This document shows, piece after piece, positions 4,457 through 8,128 of a stretch of DNA of 64,000 bases. The number at the start of each line of letters is the position of its first letter. The stretch's first letter is position 1. This stretch comes from a virus. Lineage: Duplodnaviria; Caudoviricetes. The translations under genes and the position numbers were made by a program. Location: IMG/VR virus record IMGVR_UViG_3300044652_000032, positions 1 to 64,000 of that record; one strand, given 5' to 3'. The notes under the pieces were generated by a model, which saw nothing but the letters and a program-made list of their open reading frames with translations, did no database searches and was not told the origin of the DNA.

Positions 4457-4633
4457 ATGCGCGTAGTCCCGCTGTGGATAGTCGCCATCGGGTTGGGCGT
4501 AATGGCCGTGCTGGTGGTCGCATCCCCGCGACATTATCCCGCCTTAGACGCCGCCGACGTGTGCAGCGCCGTGTTCGCTACAGGCGCTTTCGTTCTAATA
4601 GCAATAGCAGTAAGCCAGAAGGAGAACAAGTGA
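4457..4633 (+). CDS. Small membrane protein
   Basis: Two hydrophobic stretches, TGATG coupling on both sides. Confidence 0.5.
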   Translation: MRVVPLWIVAIGLGVMAVLVVASPRHYPALDAADVCSAVFATGAFVLIAIAVSQKENK

Positions 4634-4941
4634 TGACGAAAAAGATTTACGCACCCTTGAAGGACACGGTTTACCTCAAGGAGATCAAGCGCACGGAGCA
4701 GCAGACGGACGCCGGACTGGTGCTGGATGAGCGCAGCAGGACGCTGGACGACCCCCAGTACGAGGTCGTGGCCGTGGGGCCGGGCCGCCGGACGGAGGAC
4801 GGACGCGGCAACGTCCCCGTGGACTTGGAGAGGGGCCAGCGCGTGGTGCTGCTGCGGATGGCCATCCCCAACCGGATGGATGTGGACGGCGAGGCGATCA
4901 CAATCGTCAAGGAGACGGATATAGCGTGCGTCGTCGGCTGA
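4633..4941 (+). CDS. GroES/Cpn10-like co-chaperonin
   Basis: PLKDTVYL, mobile loop QTDAGLVL, EVVAVGPGR, IVKETDIACVV. Confidence 0.85.
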   Translation: MTKKIYAPLKDTVYLKEIKRTEQQTDAGLVLDERSRTLDDPQYEVVAVGPGRRTEDGRGNVPVDLERGQRVVLLRMAIPNRMDVDGEAITIVKETDIACVVG

Positions 4942-4955
4942 GGCGAAAAAAGGAC

Positions 4956-4984
4956 TTTACAAAAAAGAAAATTTTTGTTATCGT
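4956..4984 (+). promoter_or_regulatory. Sigma70-type promoter of the Y-RNA/HNH/Ro60 operon
   Basis: TTTACA (4956-61), 17 nt, TATCGT (4979-84) with extended TG; AT-rich island. Confidence 0.7.
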
Positions 4985-5001
4985 GTTTTTCGCCTTCAAA
5001 C

Positions 5002-5012
5002 AGTTCTTTGAC
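5002..5012 (+). promoter_or_regulatory. boxA-like antitermination site
   Basis: AGTTCTTTGAC immediately before the RNA cluster resembles rrn boxA. Confidence 0.4.
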
Positions 5013-5138
5013 TTTCGAGGCCATGGACGGAGCGTACATGCGATAGCTCATTTGGCAGAGCATCAGCCTATCAAGCTGAGGGTAATCGGTTCAAATCCGA
5101 TTCGCGACCAAAATGGCTCGGTCAACTCGCCTCGGAAA
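5013..5138 (+). ncRNA. Y-RNA-like RNA 1 with non-permuted tRNA D/anticodon/T arms
   Basis: Terminal stem CGAGGC 5016-21/GCCTCG 5129-34; D arm GCTC-ATTTGGCA-GAGC; anticodon arm TCAGC-CTATCAA-GCTGA; T arm ATCGG-TTCAAAT-CCGAT; acceptor stem only 4-5 bp. Confidence 0.7.
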
Positions 5139-5144
5139 CCTTGT

Positions 5145-5248
5145 GACGGTGTTGCCAAGCAACGGGCATACATGCGCTGACCTTCTAAGTCAAGAAGCAA
5201 CCCGGACTCAGTTCCGGGAGCTACGCCCGTCGGACTCGCGACCCCGTC
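5145..5248 (+). ncRNA. Y-RNA-like RNA 2 with an Arg(UCU)-like anticodon stem-loop
   Basis: Stem GACGGtGTTGC/GCGACcCCGTC; ACGGGC/GCCCGT; TGAC-CTTCTAA-GTCA; CCCGGA/TCCGGG hairpin; shares scaffold motifs with RNAs 1 and 3. Confidence 0.6.
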
Positions 5249-5262
5249 CCTACGTTCAAGAT

Positions 5263-5402
5263 AGGGACGCCAGCAGACAGCATACACGCTCGAAACCTTC
5301 GGGTTTCATTCTTGGTTCGACTCCAAGGTCCCGCTCCATACTTATGCGGGACTAGCCAAACGGTAAAGGCAAGCAACAGTAGCCGACTGCGCTCGCGTCC
5401 CT
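5263..5402 (+). ncRNA. YrlA-type Y RNA (circularly permuted tRNA mimic)
   Basis: Terminal stem AGGGACGC/GCGTCCCT; order variable arm, T arm CTTGG-TTCGACT-CCAAG, closed acceptor stem GTCCCGC-TCCATACTTAT-GCGGGAC, D arm TAGCC-AAACGGTAAA-GGC; close to a Ro60-like gene. Confidence 0.85.
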
Positions 5403-5426
5403 TTTACGTTTCCACTGCTCCCCGCA

Positions 5427-5981
5427 ATGGCACAGAAAACTAAACAGCGATTCTACCTAGCGCGGTACCGCCGCGCGCCGGACGTTGTCCCGGCGCTGAG
5501 CGACGTCGGCGACAGGCTGACAATAGCCGGATTGGTCTTCCAAGGCATGGGCGAGACCCTCGTGCTCCTGTTGCCGGGCTGCGACCCCGCCGTGGCTCCG
5601 ACCTACGCGCAGCCCGACGCGGAAGAGTGGTCGGAGATCATAAGGCAGACGGACAACGCCGAGTGCTGGGTGCTCGACCCCGACCACGGCAAGGTGCTAC
5701 ACCGCAAGGCACGGTACGCCCTCAGCGGTGAGGTGCAGCAGCGGGTTTGGGCGCGCGACGGCTTCTACTGTCGGTACTGCCACGCCGCCATGGGTCAGGT
5801 GCTGATGACGGTTGACCACTTCGTTCCCTTGGAGAAAGGCGGTGCGAACGATGACAGCAACTACATCACGGCTTGCCGCCGTTGCAATAAGCTGAAGGGT
5901 AGCCGCGACCCCGAGGAGTTCTGCCGCACCGAGGGCTACAACTACGATAATCTTGTAGCTTACCTCGCTCTCTTCAAGTAA
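5427..5981 (+). CDS. HNH endonuclease with ~100-aa N-terminal extension
   Basis: RDGFYCRYC...TVDHFVP..KGG....NYITACRRCNKLKG. Confidence 0.9.
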   Translation: MAQKTKQRFYLARYRRAPDVVPALSDVGDRLTIAGLVFQGMGETLVLLLPGCDPAVAPTYAQPDAEEWSEIIRQTDNAECWVLDPDHGKVLHRKARYALSGEVQQRVWARDGFYCRYCHAAMGQVLMTVDHFVPLEKGGANDDSNYITACRRCNKLKGSRDPEEFCRTEGYNYDNLVAYLALFK

Positions 5982-5993
5982 GGAGGCCGACTG

Positions 5994-7502
5994 ATGGCGG
6001 AAGTTACCGCATACACACGTAACAAGTTGGTGGCGTCGCTGCTGCAGATAAAGCACGGCGACCTCTCCTTGTACGAGCCGGAGGGGCTGGCTGCGGCCAA
6101 GGCGGACGCCGACCTCTTGGGTCACTTCATAGCGTGGAACGCCCTGCGGGGTAAGGTGCGCGACGCGCGCGTCGCCTTGCCCGTCATAGCTCTCCGGGGC
6201 ACGCAGCGCGAAGACCGCGATCTGGCCGAGAACGCCGTGGCGCATCTGCTGAAGCTGGATCCGCGCGAGCTGCTCCGCGCCTACACGTACTCCACGCAGT
6301 TATCGAAGCGCGGGCTGACCATCACGGGAGGCCACCGCCGCCTGCTCGAAGTGGGGCTGCGCCGCTACCTCGAGGTGAGGGAGGACAACGCGCGGTGGTG
6401 GGACAGAACGGTCTTGCAGCACCGCCGACCGATGAAGTTCCTTTACCGCGCGGCGCACAAGCGTCCGAGCGCGCGGGCGCAGCGCATCCTCTTCGACGAG
6501 GACTACCCGCGCACCTCCGTGTTCGCCACGGTCAAGGCGCTCCGCACCATGACGCCGCGCGAGGCTGCCGGGGCAATACTGCAGTACCAGATACCGTGGG
6601 AGGTGGCGGTCGGCTCGGTCGCCAAGGCGAAGGATCGTGAGGTGCTCCTCGCCCTGATCGAGGGGATGACCGGCAACCAGCTCATCACCAACTCGGCCAT
6701 GCTGCAGCGGCTGGGCGTGATGCAGGACGAGGTCTTGAAGGCTGCGTACGAGTCGGCGCTCGCGCGTGCTACGTCCTCTAGCAAGGTCGAAACCCTCAAG
6801 GCCGGACACGCGGCTGAAAAGTTGAAGGGGACGGCTGCAGGGGAAAAGCTGGCGGCCCTGCAGGAGCGCAAGAGCGCGCAGATGGGCACGATAGACGGCG
6901 ACTGGCTGGTGTTGGGCGACTGCTCGGCCTCCATGAGCACGAGCATCGAGGTGGCGCGGCAGGTTGCGGCGTTTATCGCCCAGCGCGTGGCCGGGGCGGT
7001 GTACCTCGTCTTCTTCAACACGCAGCCCACCTTCGTGGACGTGACGGGGCTGACGTACCAGCAGATTCTGGAGAAGACCCGACGCATAACGCCGCAGGGC
7101 GGCACCGCCATCGGCGTCGGGCTGGACTACATACTCAGCCGACGGCTGGTGGTGCAGGGCATAGCCGTCTGCTCGGACGGCGGCGAGAACCAGCACCCGG
7201 CCTTCGCGCCGACGTACCGGCGCTACTGCGAGCAGATGCAGGTGGAGCCGACCGTTTACCACTTCCACGTCCCCGGCGATCAGGACGTTTTGAGCCTGAA
7301 CTGTCGCAACATGGGCGTCCCTCTGGAGCAGTTCCCGATGGGCCGCAACGTGGACTACTACGCGCTGCCCAACCTCGTAGAGACGATGCGCGTCAACCGC
7401 TACGCGCTCTTTGACGAAATTATGAGCGTCGAACTCTTGACAATAGAGAAGGCGCTGGAAAGGAGGCCGAGCCATGAGCGAGTTCAGGCAGTACCGGCGT
7501 AA
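5994..7502 (+). CDS. Ro60/Rsr-like TROVE + vWA protein
   Basis: Helical basic N-terminal two thirds, vWA MIDAS (LVLGDCSASM, GGT, VCSDGGEN), ~500 aa, adjacent Y-RNA-like genes. Confidence 0.8.
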   Translation: MAEVTAYTRNKLVASLLQIKHGDLSLYEPEGLAAAKADADLLGHFIAWNALRGKVRDARVALPVIALRGTQREDRDLAENAVAHLLKLDPRELLRAYTYSTQLSKRGLTITGGHRRLLEVGLRRYLEVREDNARWWDRTVLQHRRPMKFLYRAAHKRPSARAQRILFDEDYPRTSVFATVKALRTMTPREAAGAILQYQIPWEVAVGSVAKAKDREVLLALIEGMTGNQLITNSAMLQRLGVMQDEVLKAAYESALARATSSSKVETLKAGHAAEKLKGTAAGEKLAALQERKSAQMGTIDGDWLVLGDCSASMSTSIEVARQVAAFIAQRVAGAVYLVFFNTQPTFVDVTGLTYQQILEKTRRITPQGGTAIGVGLDYILSRRLVVQGIAVCSDGGENQHPAFAPTYRRYCEQMQVEPTVYHFHVPGDQDVLSLNCRNMGVPLEQFPMGRNVDYYALPNLVETMRVNRYALFDEIMSVELLTIEKALERRPSHERVQAVPA

Positions 7503-7689
7503 GCAGATAGCCGAGTTGCGCCCCTACGTTGCGGGCGAGGACATAAGCAGCGTCAGCGTGTCGTCAACTGACCGCGCGAACGGGTCGCCCAAAGAGGGCG
7601 ACATGATAGCGCGCAACCCCAAGAACCACGCCGACCAGTGGCTGGTGGCGGAGCAGTACTTTCGCGACAACTTCGAACCCGCCGATTGA
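7474..7689 (+). CDS. Small conserved-type phage protein
   Basis: QYRRKQIAELRPY...GDMIARNP...WLVAEQYFRDNFE; AGGAGG SD. Confidence 0.65.
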   Translation: MSEFRQYRRKQIAELRPYVAGEDISSVSVSSTDRANGSPKEGDMIARNPKNHADQWLVAEQYFRDNFEPAD

Positions 7690-7716
7690 GCGCGTTCGAG
7701 AAAGGAGACAAGCAGC

Positions 7717-8034
7717 ATGATCACCATCAACATCCGCAGCGGGCCTGTGAGCGCCCTCTCGACCGAGGAGCTGGTCACGAGCGTCGCCTTTTTCGGACTG
7801 ATGGCCGACCGCATCCACGAGAACGGGCACGAGGTTCCCTCGGACATCCAGAGCCAGTTGCGGGCGTGCGAGGCCGAGCTGACGCAGCGGCTCCGCGCCG
7901 ACAAGGAGAAGCAGCTGGCCGTCGCCAAGGCACGGCTGGAGAGCCTGCTCACGCAGACCGAGAAGCGCAAGAAGACCGAGGCGGAGATCGCCGCGCTCGA
8001 GCAGGAGCTGGGCTACAAGAAGAACACCAAGTAG
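7717..8034 (+). CDS. Hypothetical coiled-coil protein
   Basis: AAGGAG SD; last gene before terminator. Confidence 0.65.
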   Translation: MITINIRSGPVSALSTEELVTSVAFFGLMADRIHENGHEVPSDIQSQLRACEAELTQRLRADKEKQLAVAKARLESLLTQTEKRKKTEAEIAALEQELGYKKNTK

Positions 8035-8060
8035 CCCCGCGCCGTGAGCCGCGACTTTTC

Positions 8061-8104
8061 AAGGGGGTGGGTCGTCCGTCGGTGACGAGCACCCCTTTTT
8101 GTTT
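8061..8104 (+). terminator. Intrinsic terminator
   Basis: AAGGGGGTG.../CACCCCTTTTT stem followed by T tract. Confidence 0.65.
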
Positions 8105-8128
8105 GTGACGTGACAAGGAGATAACCTT

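What the first reader, a model, noticed from the sequence alone, without database searches (positions are those of the whole stretch)
5013..5138. Y-like RNA grafted through the acceptor stem, with an AUC anticodon
Seen: canonical D, anticodon and T arms in normal order, but only a 4-5 bp acceptor stem (GCGA 5040-43/TCGC 5102-05), followed by G-ACCA and the Y scaffold. The anticodon is ATC (5070-72). Established: bacteria read Asp with GUC and avoid A34 in split codon boxes; YrlA attaches the Ro-binding stem in place of the anticodon arm. Inference: this is the opposite topology, exposing an anticodon loop, and is unlikely to be a translating tRNA. A tRNA scanner would probably label it a pseudo-tRNA-Asp.
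Basis: partly seen in the sequence, partly recalled or inferred. Interest (0 to 1): 0.8.

Follow-up and report, generated by a model that had tools for sequence, protein, structure and literature searches.

The report
Phage Y-like RNA carrying a tRNA mimic
This 125-base stretch is a small non-coding RNA of a phage in which a conserved two-part stem "handle" carries an almost complete but non-decoding tRNA look-alike. It is most likely the partner RNA of the Ro60-like ring protein encoded just downstream, which makes it a new variant of the known Ro60/Y-RNA particle.

Summary
ARAGORN calls a "tRNA-Asp(atc)" at 5037-5109. Rfam tRNA matches only model positions 4-67 (51 bits). The acceptor stem is GCGA/UCGC plus one U.G pair, followed by ACCA. 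The flanks close into a bipartite stem, 5013-5033 with 5116-5137.

- **Partner protein:** the 502-aa protein at 5994-7502 is a very diverged Ro60. A family profile hits human RO60, and the AlphaFold model's top 13 PDB matches are all Ro60/TROVE.
- **RNA family:** a covariance model built without the window finds the window element full-length (91 bits). It finds the same RNA beside the Ro60-like gene in 50 other distinct phage loci, always on the gene's strand.
- **Structure:** 32 of 33 pairs covary.
- **Anticodon:** the loop shape is kept but the triplet is free. There are 23 triplets, A34 in 12 of 51, and it is the fastest-changing part.
- **No other tRNA:** this complete 95-kb phage has none.
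- **Shared handle:** two more RNAs downstream carry the same handle.

Phage Ro60 with Y-like RNAs, and tRNA mimicry by Y RNAs, are already published. D. radiodurans Yrn1 already has this orientation in rudimentary form. This scan has also reported similar handle-plus-cargo arrays in other phages. I therefore rate it a new variant of a known kind. Function, binding and processing remain untested.

The parts
4956..4984 (+). Promoter-like site TTTACA-17-TATCGT with a TG extension, in a short AT-rich gap after the GroES-like gene. It is the likely start of the RNA1-RNA2-RNA3-HNH-Ro60-like transcript.
   Evidence: 1 site found against 0.2 expected. This is a consensus match only.
5013..5021 (+). 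Outer handle stem, 5' strand (UUUCGAGGC). Pairs with 5129-5137.
   Evidence: The seven innermost pairs (5015-5021 with 5129-5135) are in the model, and in the family that helix is 99.3% paired with double changes at all 7 pairs.
5022..5025 (+). 5' side of the conserved internal loop. It reads CAUG here; the family consensus is YAC followed by a U.G and a G-C pair.
   Evidence: alignments A2, A5.
5026..5033 (+). Inner handle stem, 5' strand (GAC-G-GAGC). Pairs with 5116-5123.
   Evidence: The family helices covary.
5035..5040 (+). Near-invariant single-stranded motif UACAYG (UACAUG here), between the handle and the cargo. Its last two bases enter the acceptor stem.
   Evidence: Three of its bases are invariant and two more nearly so in the 34-sequence alignment, and the motif is conserved in the 59-row alignment. 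It recurs at 5169 and 5283 in the window.
5039..5043 (+). Shortened acceptor stem, 5' strand (U-GCGA). Pairs with 5102-5106 (UCGC-G).
   Evidence: 5 contiguous pairs including the wobble, then 2 mismatches.
5044..5101 (+). tRNA-like body. U8 and A9 are at 5044-5045, the D arm at 5046-5061 (G18 G19 at 5054-5055) and A26 at 5062. The anticodon arm is at 5063-5079, with loop CUAUCAA and triplet AUC at 5070-5072. The variable loop is at 5080-5084 and the T arm at 5085-5101 (loop UUCAAAU).
   Evidence: The arms covary in the family.
5107..5115 (+). Internal ACCA (5107-5110) and an AAAUG spacer leading back to the handle.
   Evidence: An encoded NCCA follows the acceptor in about 16 family members of the same subclass.
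5116..5123 (+). Inner handle stem, 3' strand (GCUC-G-GUC).
5124..5128 (+). 3' side of the conserved internal loop. It reads AACUC here; the family consensus is (CG)ACUU.
5129..5137 (+). Outer handle stem, 3' strand (GCCUCGGAA).
5144..5249 (+). Second RNA with the same handle (GCCA-N8-GCAUACAUGC at 5154-5175) but a non-cloverleaf cargo.
   Evidence: same duplex shape; motif found 3 times, 0 expected.
5259..5406 (+). Third RNA with the same handle (motif at 5269-5289). Its cargo runs hairpin 5292-5307, T arm 5311-5327, 7-bp hairpin 5328-5352, D-like arm. That is the YrlA-type permuted order.
   Evidence: Arm coordinates are read by eye. The Rfam YrlA model does not match it.
5427..5981 (+). HNH nuclease gene (184 aa), a frequent companion of the module.
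   Evidence: Pfam HNH E = 8e-12. A homolog lies between the RNA array and the Ro60-like gene in 25 of 60 distinct loci.
5994..7502 (+). Ro60-like (TROVE-fold plus vWA) protein, 502 aa. It is the presumed protein partner of the RNAs.
   Evidence: A family profile hits human RO60 at E = 8e-6. The AF2 model has pLDDT 88. The top 13 Foldseek PDB hits are all Ro60/TROVE, TM 0.58-0.65. D309, S311 and S313 are invariant, which I read as the vWA metal-site motif.

Best explanation
Window 5013-5137 encodes a Y-RNA-like non-coding RNA, the first of three tandem RNAs that serve the phage's own diverged Ro60-like ring protein (5994-7502).

Shown:
- The RNA has two modules. The first is a 'handle': a 9-bp outer stem, a conserved asymmetric internal loop, an 8-bp inner stem and a near-invariant single-stranded UACAYG.
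- The second is a cargo joined through a shortened acceptor stem: a complete tRNA-shaped cloverleaf with D arm, anticodon arm, variable loop, T arm and an internal ACCA.
- The handle is shared with two neighbouring RNAs and with relatives beside Ro60-like genes in 50 other distinct phage loci.

Inferred:
- The three RNAs are co-transcribed from the promoter-like site at 4956-4984 with the HNH and Ro60-like genes, then cut apart by host RNases.
- The handle, especially its conserved 5'-strand bases, binds the outer face of the Ro60-like ring, as Y-RNA stems do on Ro60.
- The cloverleaf acts as the effector module. It is a generic tRNA mimic that brings a tRNA-recognising factor to the ring, or occupies one. 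Candidates are a host exoribonuclease such as PNPase, a tRNA processing or repair enzyme, or the co-encoded HNH nuclease.
- It does not decode. The anticodon triplet is unconstrained while the loop geometry is kept.
For: **Protein**
- The profile of 43 family members hits human RO60 (9nen_A) at E = 7.9e-6, over profile positions 81-418 and chain residues 114-493.
- The AF2 model has pLDDT 88.2 and pTM 0.73. Its 13 best PDB matches are all Ro60/TROVE, including Thermus phage phiLo Ro60, Xenopus Ro and D. radiodurans Rsr, aligned full-length at TM 0.58-0.65.

**RNA family**
- Model R1 was built from 23 other loci. It finds the window element at 91.1 bits, full length.
- It gives 58 full-length hits of at least 63 bits, in 51 of the 61 distinct sources searched (the window and 50 loci). 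All lie on the strand of the Ro60-like gene, and nearly all are upstream of it.

**Structure**
- 96.1% of cells are paired. 32 of 33 pairs covary. The score is 0.73 against 0.16 for shuffles.

**Linkage tested from the RNA side**
- I took 80 viral loci (660 kb) chosen only for a shared 14-mer. R1 hits of at least 80 bits occur in exactly the 5 loci that also encode a Ro60-like gene. The two hits at 62-67 bits are ordinary tRNAs without the handle.

**Shared handle within the window**
- GCCA-N7/8-GCRTACAYGC occurs at 5020, 5154 and 5269, with 0 expected. The three elements have the same stem-loop-stem shape.

**Not a decoding tRNA**
- It is the only tRNA-like hit in the complete 95-kb genome.
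- The acceptor has 4-5 bp.
- Among orthologous elements the loop is 7 nt in 51 of 58, with U33 in 44/51, R37 in 48/51 and A38 in 48/51. Yet there are 23 different triplets, with A34 in 12/51 and G34 in 2/51.
- In 8 independent near pairs the triplet differs at 15 of 24 positions, against 73 of 414 at other unpaired columns (p = 3e-6).

**Precedent**
- Y RNAs sit next to Ro60 genes in bacteria and phages and mimic tRNA (PMC4201824).
- phiLo Ro60 binds two upstream Y-like RNAs and host PNPase (PMC12135203).
Against: - No binding, expression or processing data exist for this family.
- The handle lacks the published Ro60 contact motifs, GGUCCGA and GNCGAAN0-1G near the 5' end. Its nearest counterpart, CGAC/CGAA, is on the 3' strand and is degenerate in the window (AACUC).
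- The Rfam YrlA model gives no hit, and Pfam TROVE does not detect the protein. Homology of the whole system to Ro60/Y RNA therefore rests on remote profile and fold similarity plus architecture.
- Four of 58 relatives have a perfect 7-bp acceptor plus NCCA, so some members could be released as tRNA-sized molecules.
- The single-sequence fold energy is unremarkable (z = -1.7).
Confidence: 0.72

Rival explanations
1. Decoy reading; it overlaps with the best explanation but proposes a different job. The cloverleaf is bait for host tRNA-targeting defence nucleases, such as anticodon nucleases or toxin RNases. It is displayed on, or protected by, the Ro60-like ring. Its anticodon loop diversifies between phages to track host nucleases.
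For: - The anticodon triplet is the fastest-changing part of the RNA: 15/24 against 73/414 differences in near pairs. L020 and L031 are 95% identical elsewhere but differ at 2 of 3 triplet bases.
- The loop geometry is kept while the triplet is free.
- The neighbouring RNAs display other tRNA parts on the same handle.
- A Ro60-like protein of phage Bas63 counters the Ppl defence system and sits next to tRNA genes that the authors suggest may be Y RNAs (PMC11482910).
Against: - The triplet pattern is equally what unconstrained drift would give. The comparison columns include constrained positions, so the test cannot separate neutral from diversifying change.
- Triplets such as AUC, AAU, ACU and AAA match no normal bacterial tRNA, which makes them odd bait.
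- No defence nuclease target has been identified, and the host is unknown.
Confidence: 0.18
2. A real, if unusual, tRNA gene. The handle is only a leader-trailer processing platform. RNase P and 3' trimming release a tRNA that is charged and used by the phage.
For: - Rfam tRNA scores 51 bits, and the elbow bases are canonical.
- ACCA is encoded after the acceptor.
- Four of 58 relatives have 7-bp acceptors plus NCCA.
- M. smegmatis YrlA is cut by RNase P and receives CCA.
- Many related phages place the module inside tRNA gene clusters.
Against: - The acceptor has 4-5 bp with mismatches at the positions RNase P and synthetases read.
- A34 in a split codon box, and the absence of G73, G34 and C38, argue against Asp identity. 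These identity rules are from memory.
- The anticodon is not conserved among orthologs, and some have 5-, 6-, 8- or 13-nt loops.
- One lone tRNA for the rare GAU codon in a GC-rich phage has no evident use.
- The same handle carries non-tRNA cargo at 5144-5249.
Confidence: 0.07
3. A cis-acting leader of the HNH/Ro60-like mRNA rather than a trans-acting RNA. In this reading the element acts in stability, processing or attenuation.
For: - It lies between a promoter-like site and the genes, with no terminator in between.
- It is always on the gene's strand.
Against: - Its distance to the gene varies from about 30 nt to more than 2 kb. Other genes or tRNAs can lie between, and in L009 the copies lie downstream of the gene.
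- Tandem self-contained units closed by their own covarying stems look like excised small RNAs.
Confidence: 0.03

Closest known systems
D. radiodurans Yrn1 (Y RNA of Rsr), as modelled by Chen et al. 2014 (PMC4201824)
   Same: The Ro-binding stem is formed by the 5' and 3' ends. The tRNA-like part is in natural 5'-to-3' order, with an 'anticodon arm' between D-like and T elements, so the stem enters at the acceptor end. This is the orientation opposite to YrlA.
   Different: Yrn1 has no full D arm, no variable arm and a 6-nt 'anticodon' loop. The phage RNA is a complete canonical cloverleaf that tRNA scanners call. Its handle has an asymmetric internal loop plus UACAYG, which differs in sequence. 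No sequence-level comparison with Yrn1 was run here.
YrlA (Rfam RF02553; Salmonella, Mycobacterium, mycobacteriophages)
   Same: It is encoded next to a Ro60 gene, often in tandem with a second Y RNA. It has a modular stem plus tRNA mimic with conserved D and T arms. M. smegmatis YrlA has a 7-bp acceptor, is cut by RNase P and receives CCA.
   Different: YrlA is permuted (T arm, closed acceptor hairpin, D arm), has no anticodon loop, and the Ro stem replaces the anticodon arm. It has GNCGAAN0-1G near the 5' end. The window element has none of these features and does not match RF02553.
Thermus phage phiLo Ro60 with Yrl1/Yrl2 (PMC12135203; PDB 9KOP, 9L5Y)
   Same: A phage-encoded Ro60 with Y-like RNAs encoded upstream of the gene. 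That protein is the best structural match of the window's protein.
   Different: Yrl1 and Yrl2 are described as stem-bulge-stem RNAs with a CGAA motif, and no cloverleaf is reported. The window protein shares only 17-18% identity with the phiLo protein over the structural alignment.
Handle-plus-cargo RNA arrays beside Ro60-like genes, reported earlier by this scan on other phages (e1-5706455, e1-5369478, e1-5699896, e1-5635155 and others)
   Same: Tandem RNAs share one handle and carry different tRNA parts, next to a diverged Ro60-like gene. e1-5635155 quotes the loop AUACUG/CGAUUUA, which fits this family's consensus.
   Different: Those are unchecked AI notes on other DNA. Several describe other handles (ACAGCA, CAGCAA). 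I did not compare sequences with them.

Membership tests
Decoding tRNA (tRNA-Asp) | Cloverleaf with canonical D, anticodon and T arms and elbow bases | tested here: met
   RF00005 at 51 bits, and an ARAGORN call.
Decoding tRNA (tRNA-Asp) | 7-bp acceptor stem with free, processable ends | tested here: not met
   4 Watson-Crick pairs plus 1 wobble, then 2 mismatches. Rfam aligns only model positions 4-67. The ends are buried in a 17-bp handle.
Decoding tRNA (tRNA-Asp) | Anticodon conserved among orthologous genes and legitimate for bacterial decoding | tested here: not met
   23 different triplets in 51 orthologous elements, with A34 in 12 and G34 in 2. That bacteria use GUC for Asp is established knowledge.
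Decoding tRNA (tRNA-Asp) | Aminoacylation and use on the ribosome | not testable with these tools
   Needs acid-gel Northern blots or charging assays.
Y RNA (Ro60-associated ncRNA, functional class) | Encoded next to a Ro60 ortholog | tested here: met
   It lies 857 nt upstream of the Ro60-like gene. The same arrangement occurs in 50 other distinct loci. High-scoring hits are found only in Ro60-like loci.
Y RNA (Ro60-associated ncRNA, functional class) | 5' and 3' ends pair into a long stem that holds a conserved protein-binding feature | tested here: met
   A covarying bipartite stem with a conserved internal loop and UACAYG.
Y RNA (Ro60-associated ncRNA, functional class) | Published Ro60 contact motif (GGUCCGA in animals, GNCGAAN0-1G near the 5' end in bacteria) | tested here: not met
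   There is no such motif on the 5' strand. Only CGAC/CGAA-like bases occur on the 3' strand of relatives, and the window has AACUC.
Y RNA (Ro60-associated ncRNA, functional class) | Physical binding to Ro60 | not testable with these tools
   Needs RIP/CLIP or a gel-shift assay.
YrlA (Rfam RF02553) | Match to the family covariance model | tested here: not met
   No hit at E <= 10 in the window region or in the whole phage genome.
YrlA (Rfam RF02553) | Permuted order T arm, closed acceptor hairpin, D arm; no anticodon loop | tested here: not met
   The order here is acceptor, D, anticodon, variable, T, acceptor, with a 7-nt anticodon loop.
Ro60/TROVE protein (for the partner, 5994-7502) | HEAT-repeat ring plus C-terminal vWA fold | tested here: met
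   The top 13 Foldseek PDB hits are all Ro60/TROVE, full length, TM 0.58-0.65. The profile hits RO60 at E = 8e-6.
Ro60/TROVE protein (for the partner, 5994-7502) | Match to Pfam TROVE (PF05731) | tested here: not met
   No hit in the protein or in the whole genome. There are only weak vWA hits, plus phrog_850 'RNA-binding protein' at E = 2e-4.
Ro60/TROVE protein (for the partner, 5994-7502) | vWA metal-site (MIDAS) motif DxSxS | tested here: met
   D309, S311 and S313 are invariant in 43 family members. Reading them as the MIDAS motif is my inference.
Dictyostelid Class I RNA (RF01414; a lead from earlier scan notes) | Match to the family model; short stem plus an 11-nt motif next to the 5' stem strand | tested here: not met
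   RF01414 is not among the hits at E <= 10 for 4900-5600. Only a UACA core is shared with the motif, which I recall from memory. PMC7919456 gives the architecture.

The most novel reading that the evidence does not exclude
The Ro60-like ring with its handle RNAs is a display platform for tRNA parts. In this phage these are a whole cloverleaf, a second cargo that is not a cloverleaf, and an acceptor/T/D mimic. The anticodon triplets are under diversifying selection. The particle intercepts or senses host tRNA-targeting defence nucleases, possibly coupling this to the co-inherited HNH nuclease. That would make it a phage counter-defence ribonucleoprotein of a kind not yet described.
Probability: 0.18. 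Interest if true: 0.85.

Novelty: new variant of a known kind. Interest (0 to 1): 0.6.

Why it matters
Ro60 and Y RNAs are conserved from bacteria to humans, yet what the tRNA-like module of bacterial Y RNAs binds is still unknown.

This family could help in four ways:
- **A large natural data set.** The protein family has more than 145 members, and the RNA was found beside the gene in 50 distinct phage loci besides the window. The effector module is an almost perfect tRNA attached the other way round from YrlA.
- **Clear constraints.** The handle, the elbow and the loop geometry are conserved, while the anticodon triplet is free.
- **A candidate new binding site.** The handle (internal loop plus UACAYG) may be a Ro60-like binding site that differs from the published motifs.
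- **A possible nuclease partner.** The frequent HNH companion suggests one.

Practically, it shows that tRNA scanners mislabel such RNAs as odd tRNAs or suppressor tRNAs. In related phages the calls include AUC, ACU, AAU, UCA and UUA. This matters for claims about phage tRNA repertoires and stop-codon recoding.

Tried and rejected
- **Single-sequence folding** gave no significant signal (z = -1.7 for 5005-5145). Duplex energy alone also does not separate the handle from background in this GC-rich genome. Only comparison and the shared motif do.
- **Rfam** at E <= 10 gave nothing but tRNA plus chance miRNA/sRNA hits. YrlA RF02553 had no hit in the whole phage.
- **Pfam TROVE** did not detect the protein. 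Sequence search of the PDB with the single protein gave nothing. The family profile was needed.
- **Cultured-phage relatives:** blastn of the region found only a 58-nt tRNA-like match in one uncultured phage. tblastn of the protein found one uncultured 595-kb phage. No laboratory model phage was found.
It was repeated later.
- **'Simple decayed tRNA'** was rejected because the handle is conserved and covaries, and is shared with non-tRNA cargo.
- **The two 62-67-bit R1 hits outside Ro60-like loci** (L136, L111) were inspected. They are ordinary tRNAs without UACAYG. About 75-80 bits therefore separates family members from tRNAs.
- **Neighbouring small proteins** (7474-7689, 7638-8108, 7717-8034) and the HNH N-terminal 100 residues gave no family assignment.

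Full report
**1. What is in the sequence**

The window is the first 64 kb of a complete 95,182-bp phage genome with direct terminal repeats.

- ARAGORN finds one tRNA-like gene in the window, at 5037-5109 on the + strand. It calls it tRNA-Asp with anticodon atc at 5070-5072.
- The Rfam tRNA model matches 5040-5105 at 51 bits but covers only model positions 4-67. The outer three acceptor pairs are absent.
- Read directly, the acceptor is G5040-C5105, C5041-G5104, G5042-C5103 and A5043-U5102, plus U5039.G5106. Two mismatches follow, and ACCA lies at 5107-5110.
- The other arms are canonical: D arm 5046-5061, anticodon arm 5063-5079 (loop CUAUCAA), variable loop 5080-5084, T arm 5085-5101.
- The flanks close into a bipartite stem. 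UUUCGAGGC (5013-5021) pairs with GCCUCGGAA (5129-5137). GAC-G-GAGC (5026-5033) pairs with GCUC-G-GUC (5116-5123). Between the two stems is an internal loop, CAUG on the 5' side and AACUC on the 3' side.

On one sequence the fold is not statistically remarkable (z = -1.7).

**2. The neighbour is a diverged Ro60**

The 502-aa ORF at 5994-7502 has only weak vWA hits in Pfam and no TROVE hit. It also gives a weak hit to PHROG 850, 'RNA-binding protein'.

- It has more than 145 relatives of about 500 aa, nearly all unnamed metagenomic proteins.
- A profile of 43 of them hits human RO60 at E = 7.9e-6 across both domains.
- The AlphaFold2 model has pLDDT 88.2 and pTM 0.73.
- Its 13 best PDB matches are exclusively Ro60/TROVE structures, aligned over the whole length at TM 0.58-0.65. 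They include Thermus phage phiLo Ro60, Xenopus Ro with Y RNA, D. radiodurans Rsr and human Ro60.
- D309, S311 and S313 are invariant. I read these as the vWA metal-site motif.

I conclude that it is a Ro60-like ring protein that current domain models miss.

**3. The RNA is a conserved family tied to that gene**

I fetched 71 viral loci that encode relatives of the protein. ARAGORN calls on them showed many odd 'tRNAs' upstream of the gene, with anticodons ACT, AAT, ATC, AAA, TCA and TTA, and some with 2- or 4-base anticodons.

Printing the flanks showed a shared architecture:
- an outer stem;
- a 5' loop YAC, followed by a conserved U.G and a G-C pair;
- an inner stem;
- a near-invariant UACAYG;
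- the tRNA-like body;
- a variable 3' spacer;
- the inner stem's 3' strand, then CG-ACUU, then the outer stem's 3' strand.

I built a covariance model from 23 loci, deliberately leaving the window out.
- It finds the window element at 5015-5135, full length, 91.1 bits, E = 4e-17.
- It gives 58 full-length hits of at least 63 bits, in the window and 50 of the 60 other distinct loci searched. All are on the gene's strand.
- On the 59-row alignment, 96.1% of cells pair against 62.9% after shuffling, and 32 of 33 pairs show double changes.
- The covariation score is 0.73, against 0.16 shuffled and at most 0.11 with slid partners. The 7-bp outer helix is 99.3% paired. That alignment was fitted to the model. 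However, the outer helix already covaried in the plain MAFFT alignment.

I also tested the linkage from the RNA side. A scan of all viral contigs for a 14-mer shared by many members (TTACATGTAGCTCA) returned 80 loci totalling 660 kb. R1 hits of at least 80 bits occurred in exactly the 5 loci that also encode a Ro60-like gene. The two hits at 62-67 bits elsewhere are ordinary tRNAs without the handle.

**4. It is not a decoding tRNA**

- It is the only tRNA-like sequence in the complete phage genome.
- Across the 58 family members, the 7 nt before U8 and the 7 nt after the T stem pair fully in only 4. The window has 5 contiguous pairs.
- The loop is 7 nt in 51 of 58. U33 is present in 44/51, R37 in 48/51 and A38 in 48/51.
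- Even so, there are 23 different triplets. A34 occurs in 12/51 and G34 in only 2/51. UGA occurs six times without a long variable arm, UCA four times and UUA twice.
- In 8 independent pairs that are 72-95% identical elsewhere, the triplet differs at 15 of 24 positions. Other unpaired columns differ at 73 of 414 (Fisher p = 3e-6).

The tRNA shape is therefore selected and the anticodon is not. Whether the triplet drifts freely or is driven to change cannot be decided, because the comparison columns include constrained sites.

**5. Two subclasses**

- In one subclass, which includes the window, 2-11 extra bases after UACAYG form a 4-7 bp acceptor with the strand after the T arm. An NCCA is often encoded next.
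- In the other, UACAUG abuts U8 directly. The 3' spacer holds a GNRA-type hairpin such as CCCGAAAGGG, which could stack on the T arm like the closed acceptor hairpin of YrlA.

**6. Context in the window**

- The motif GCCA-N7/8-GCRTACAYGC occurs three times, at 5020, 5154 and 5269, with none expected.
- The three units, 5012-5138, 5144-5249 and 5259-5406, have the same stem-loop-stem shape.
- The third carries a T arm, a 7-bp hairpin and a D-like arm in YrlA order, by my reading. It does not match the Rfam YrlA model.
- In other loci, weaker R1 hits lie immediately after the main hit, so tandem arrays are general.
- A promoter-like site precedes the array at 4956-4984.
- The HNH gene (5427-5981) has homologs at the same position in 25 of 60 distinct loci. 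A 105-aa ORF (7717-8034) recurs just downstream of the Ro60-like gene in 14 distinct loci.

**7. Mechanism**

*Shown:* the architecture, its conservation and covariation, its exclusive linkage to a Ro60-like gene, the shared handle, and the unconstrained triplet.

*Inferred by analogy:*
- Y RNAs bind Ro60 through the stem formed by their ends, mainly via conserved 5'-strand bases. Their other end binds effectors such as PNPase (PMC4201824; bioRxiv 10.1101/312249).
- phiLo Ro60 binds two upstream Y-like RNAs and host PNPase (PMC12135203).
- By analogy, the handle would bind the Ro60-like ring, and the cloverleaf would be a generic tRNA mimic that recruits or occupies a tRNA-recognising factor.
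- A decoy role against tRNA-targeting defences is a live alternative. A Ro60-like protein of phage Bas63 counters the Ppl defence, and its authors suggest that nearby 'tRNA' genes may be Y RNAs (PMC11482910).

**8. Comparison with what is known**

- It works like a Y RNA.
- It is not a YrlA. There is no model match, the order is different, an anticodon loop is present and there is no GNCGAA motif.
- Its orientation has a partial precedent in D. radiodurans Yrn1. Chen et al. model Yrn1 with an anticodon-arm-like hairpin between D-like and T elements, and note that YrlA and Yrn1 have opposite orientations.
- New here are the complete cloverleaf, the handle sequence, the size of the family and the diverged protein.
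- This scan has already reported similar handle-plus-cargo arrays beside Ro60-like genes in other phages. One note describes the same loop motif in another genome. I treated those notes as leads only.

**9. Verdict**

I rate it a new variant of a known kind, with moderate to high interest. The unresolved points are binding, processing, and the role of UACAYG.

Noticed in passing
window 5144-5249 and 5259-5406: Two further RNAs share the handle of the flagged element (GCCA-N7/8-GCRTACAYGC and the same stem-loop-stem shape) but carry other cargo. The third has T arm, 7-bp hairpin and D-like arm in YrlA order, yet does not match Rfam YrlA.
   Followed up: partly
window 5427-5981: The HNH nuclease gene is not a stray homing element. 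Homologs (35-56% identity) lie at the same position, between the RNA array and the Ro60-like gene, in 25 of 60 distinct loci. Its N-terminal 100 residues match no family.
   Followed up: partly
window 7717-8034: A 105-aa ORF of no known family recurs immediately downstream of the Ro60-like gene in 14 distinct loci.
   Followed up: partly
window 5035-5040 (also 5169-5174 and 5283-5288); alignment A5: A near-invariant single-stranded UACAYG lies between the handle and the cargo in all family members. From memory, UACAU is the cleavage pentad of Bacillus and Staphylococcus MazF toxins, and UACA is shared with the dictyostelid Class I RNA motif and with handles noted elsewhere by this scan. Its role is unexplained.
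   Followed up: partly
alignment A5; e.g. L044:1870-1990, L055:1622-1742, L054:1987-2106: In a subclass of the family the 3' acceptor strand is replaced by a GNRA-type hairpin (such as CCCGAAAGGG or CCUCGCAAGAGG), and UACAUG abuts U8. This suggests a closed acceptor mimic, as in YrlA.
   Followed up: no
loci L021, L029, L034-L036, L042, L046, L054, L060: In many related phages the Ro60-like gene and its handle RNAs sit inside large tRNA gene clusters of up to 20 tRNAs. The window's phage has no true tRNA at all.
   Followed up: no
L010, L021, L046 (UCA); L009, L056 (UUA): ARAGORN labels some handle RNAs tRNA-SeC or 'tRNA-Stop' (suppressor-like). Such calls in phage genomes could be misread as evidence of stop-codon recoding.
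   Followed up: no
window 4474-4941: A GroES-like co-chaperonin (Cpn10 domain at residues 60-154) has an extra N-terminal stretch of about 60 residues. It lies directly upstream of the RNA operon and is not conserved in the related loci.
   Followed up: no
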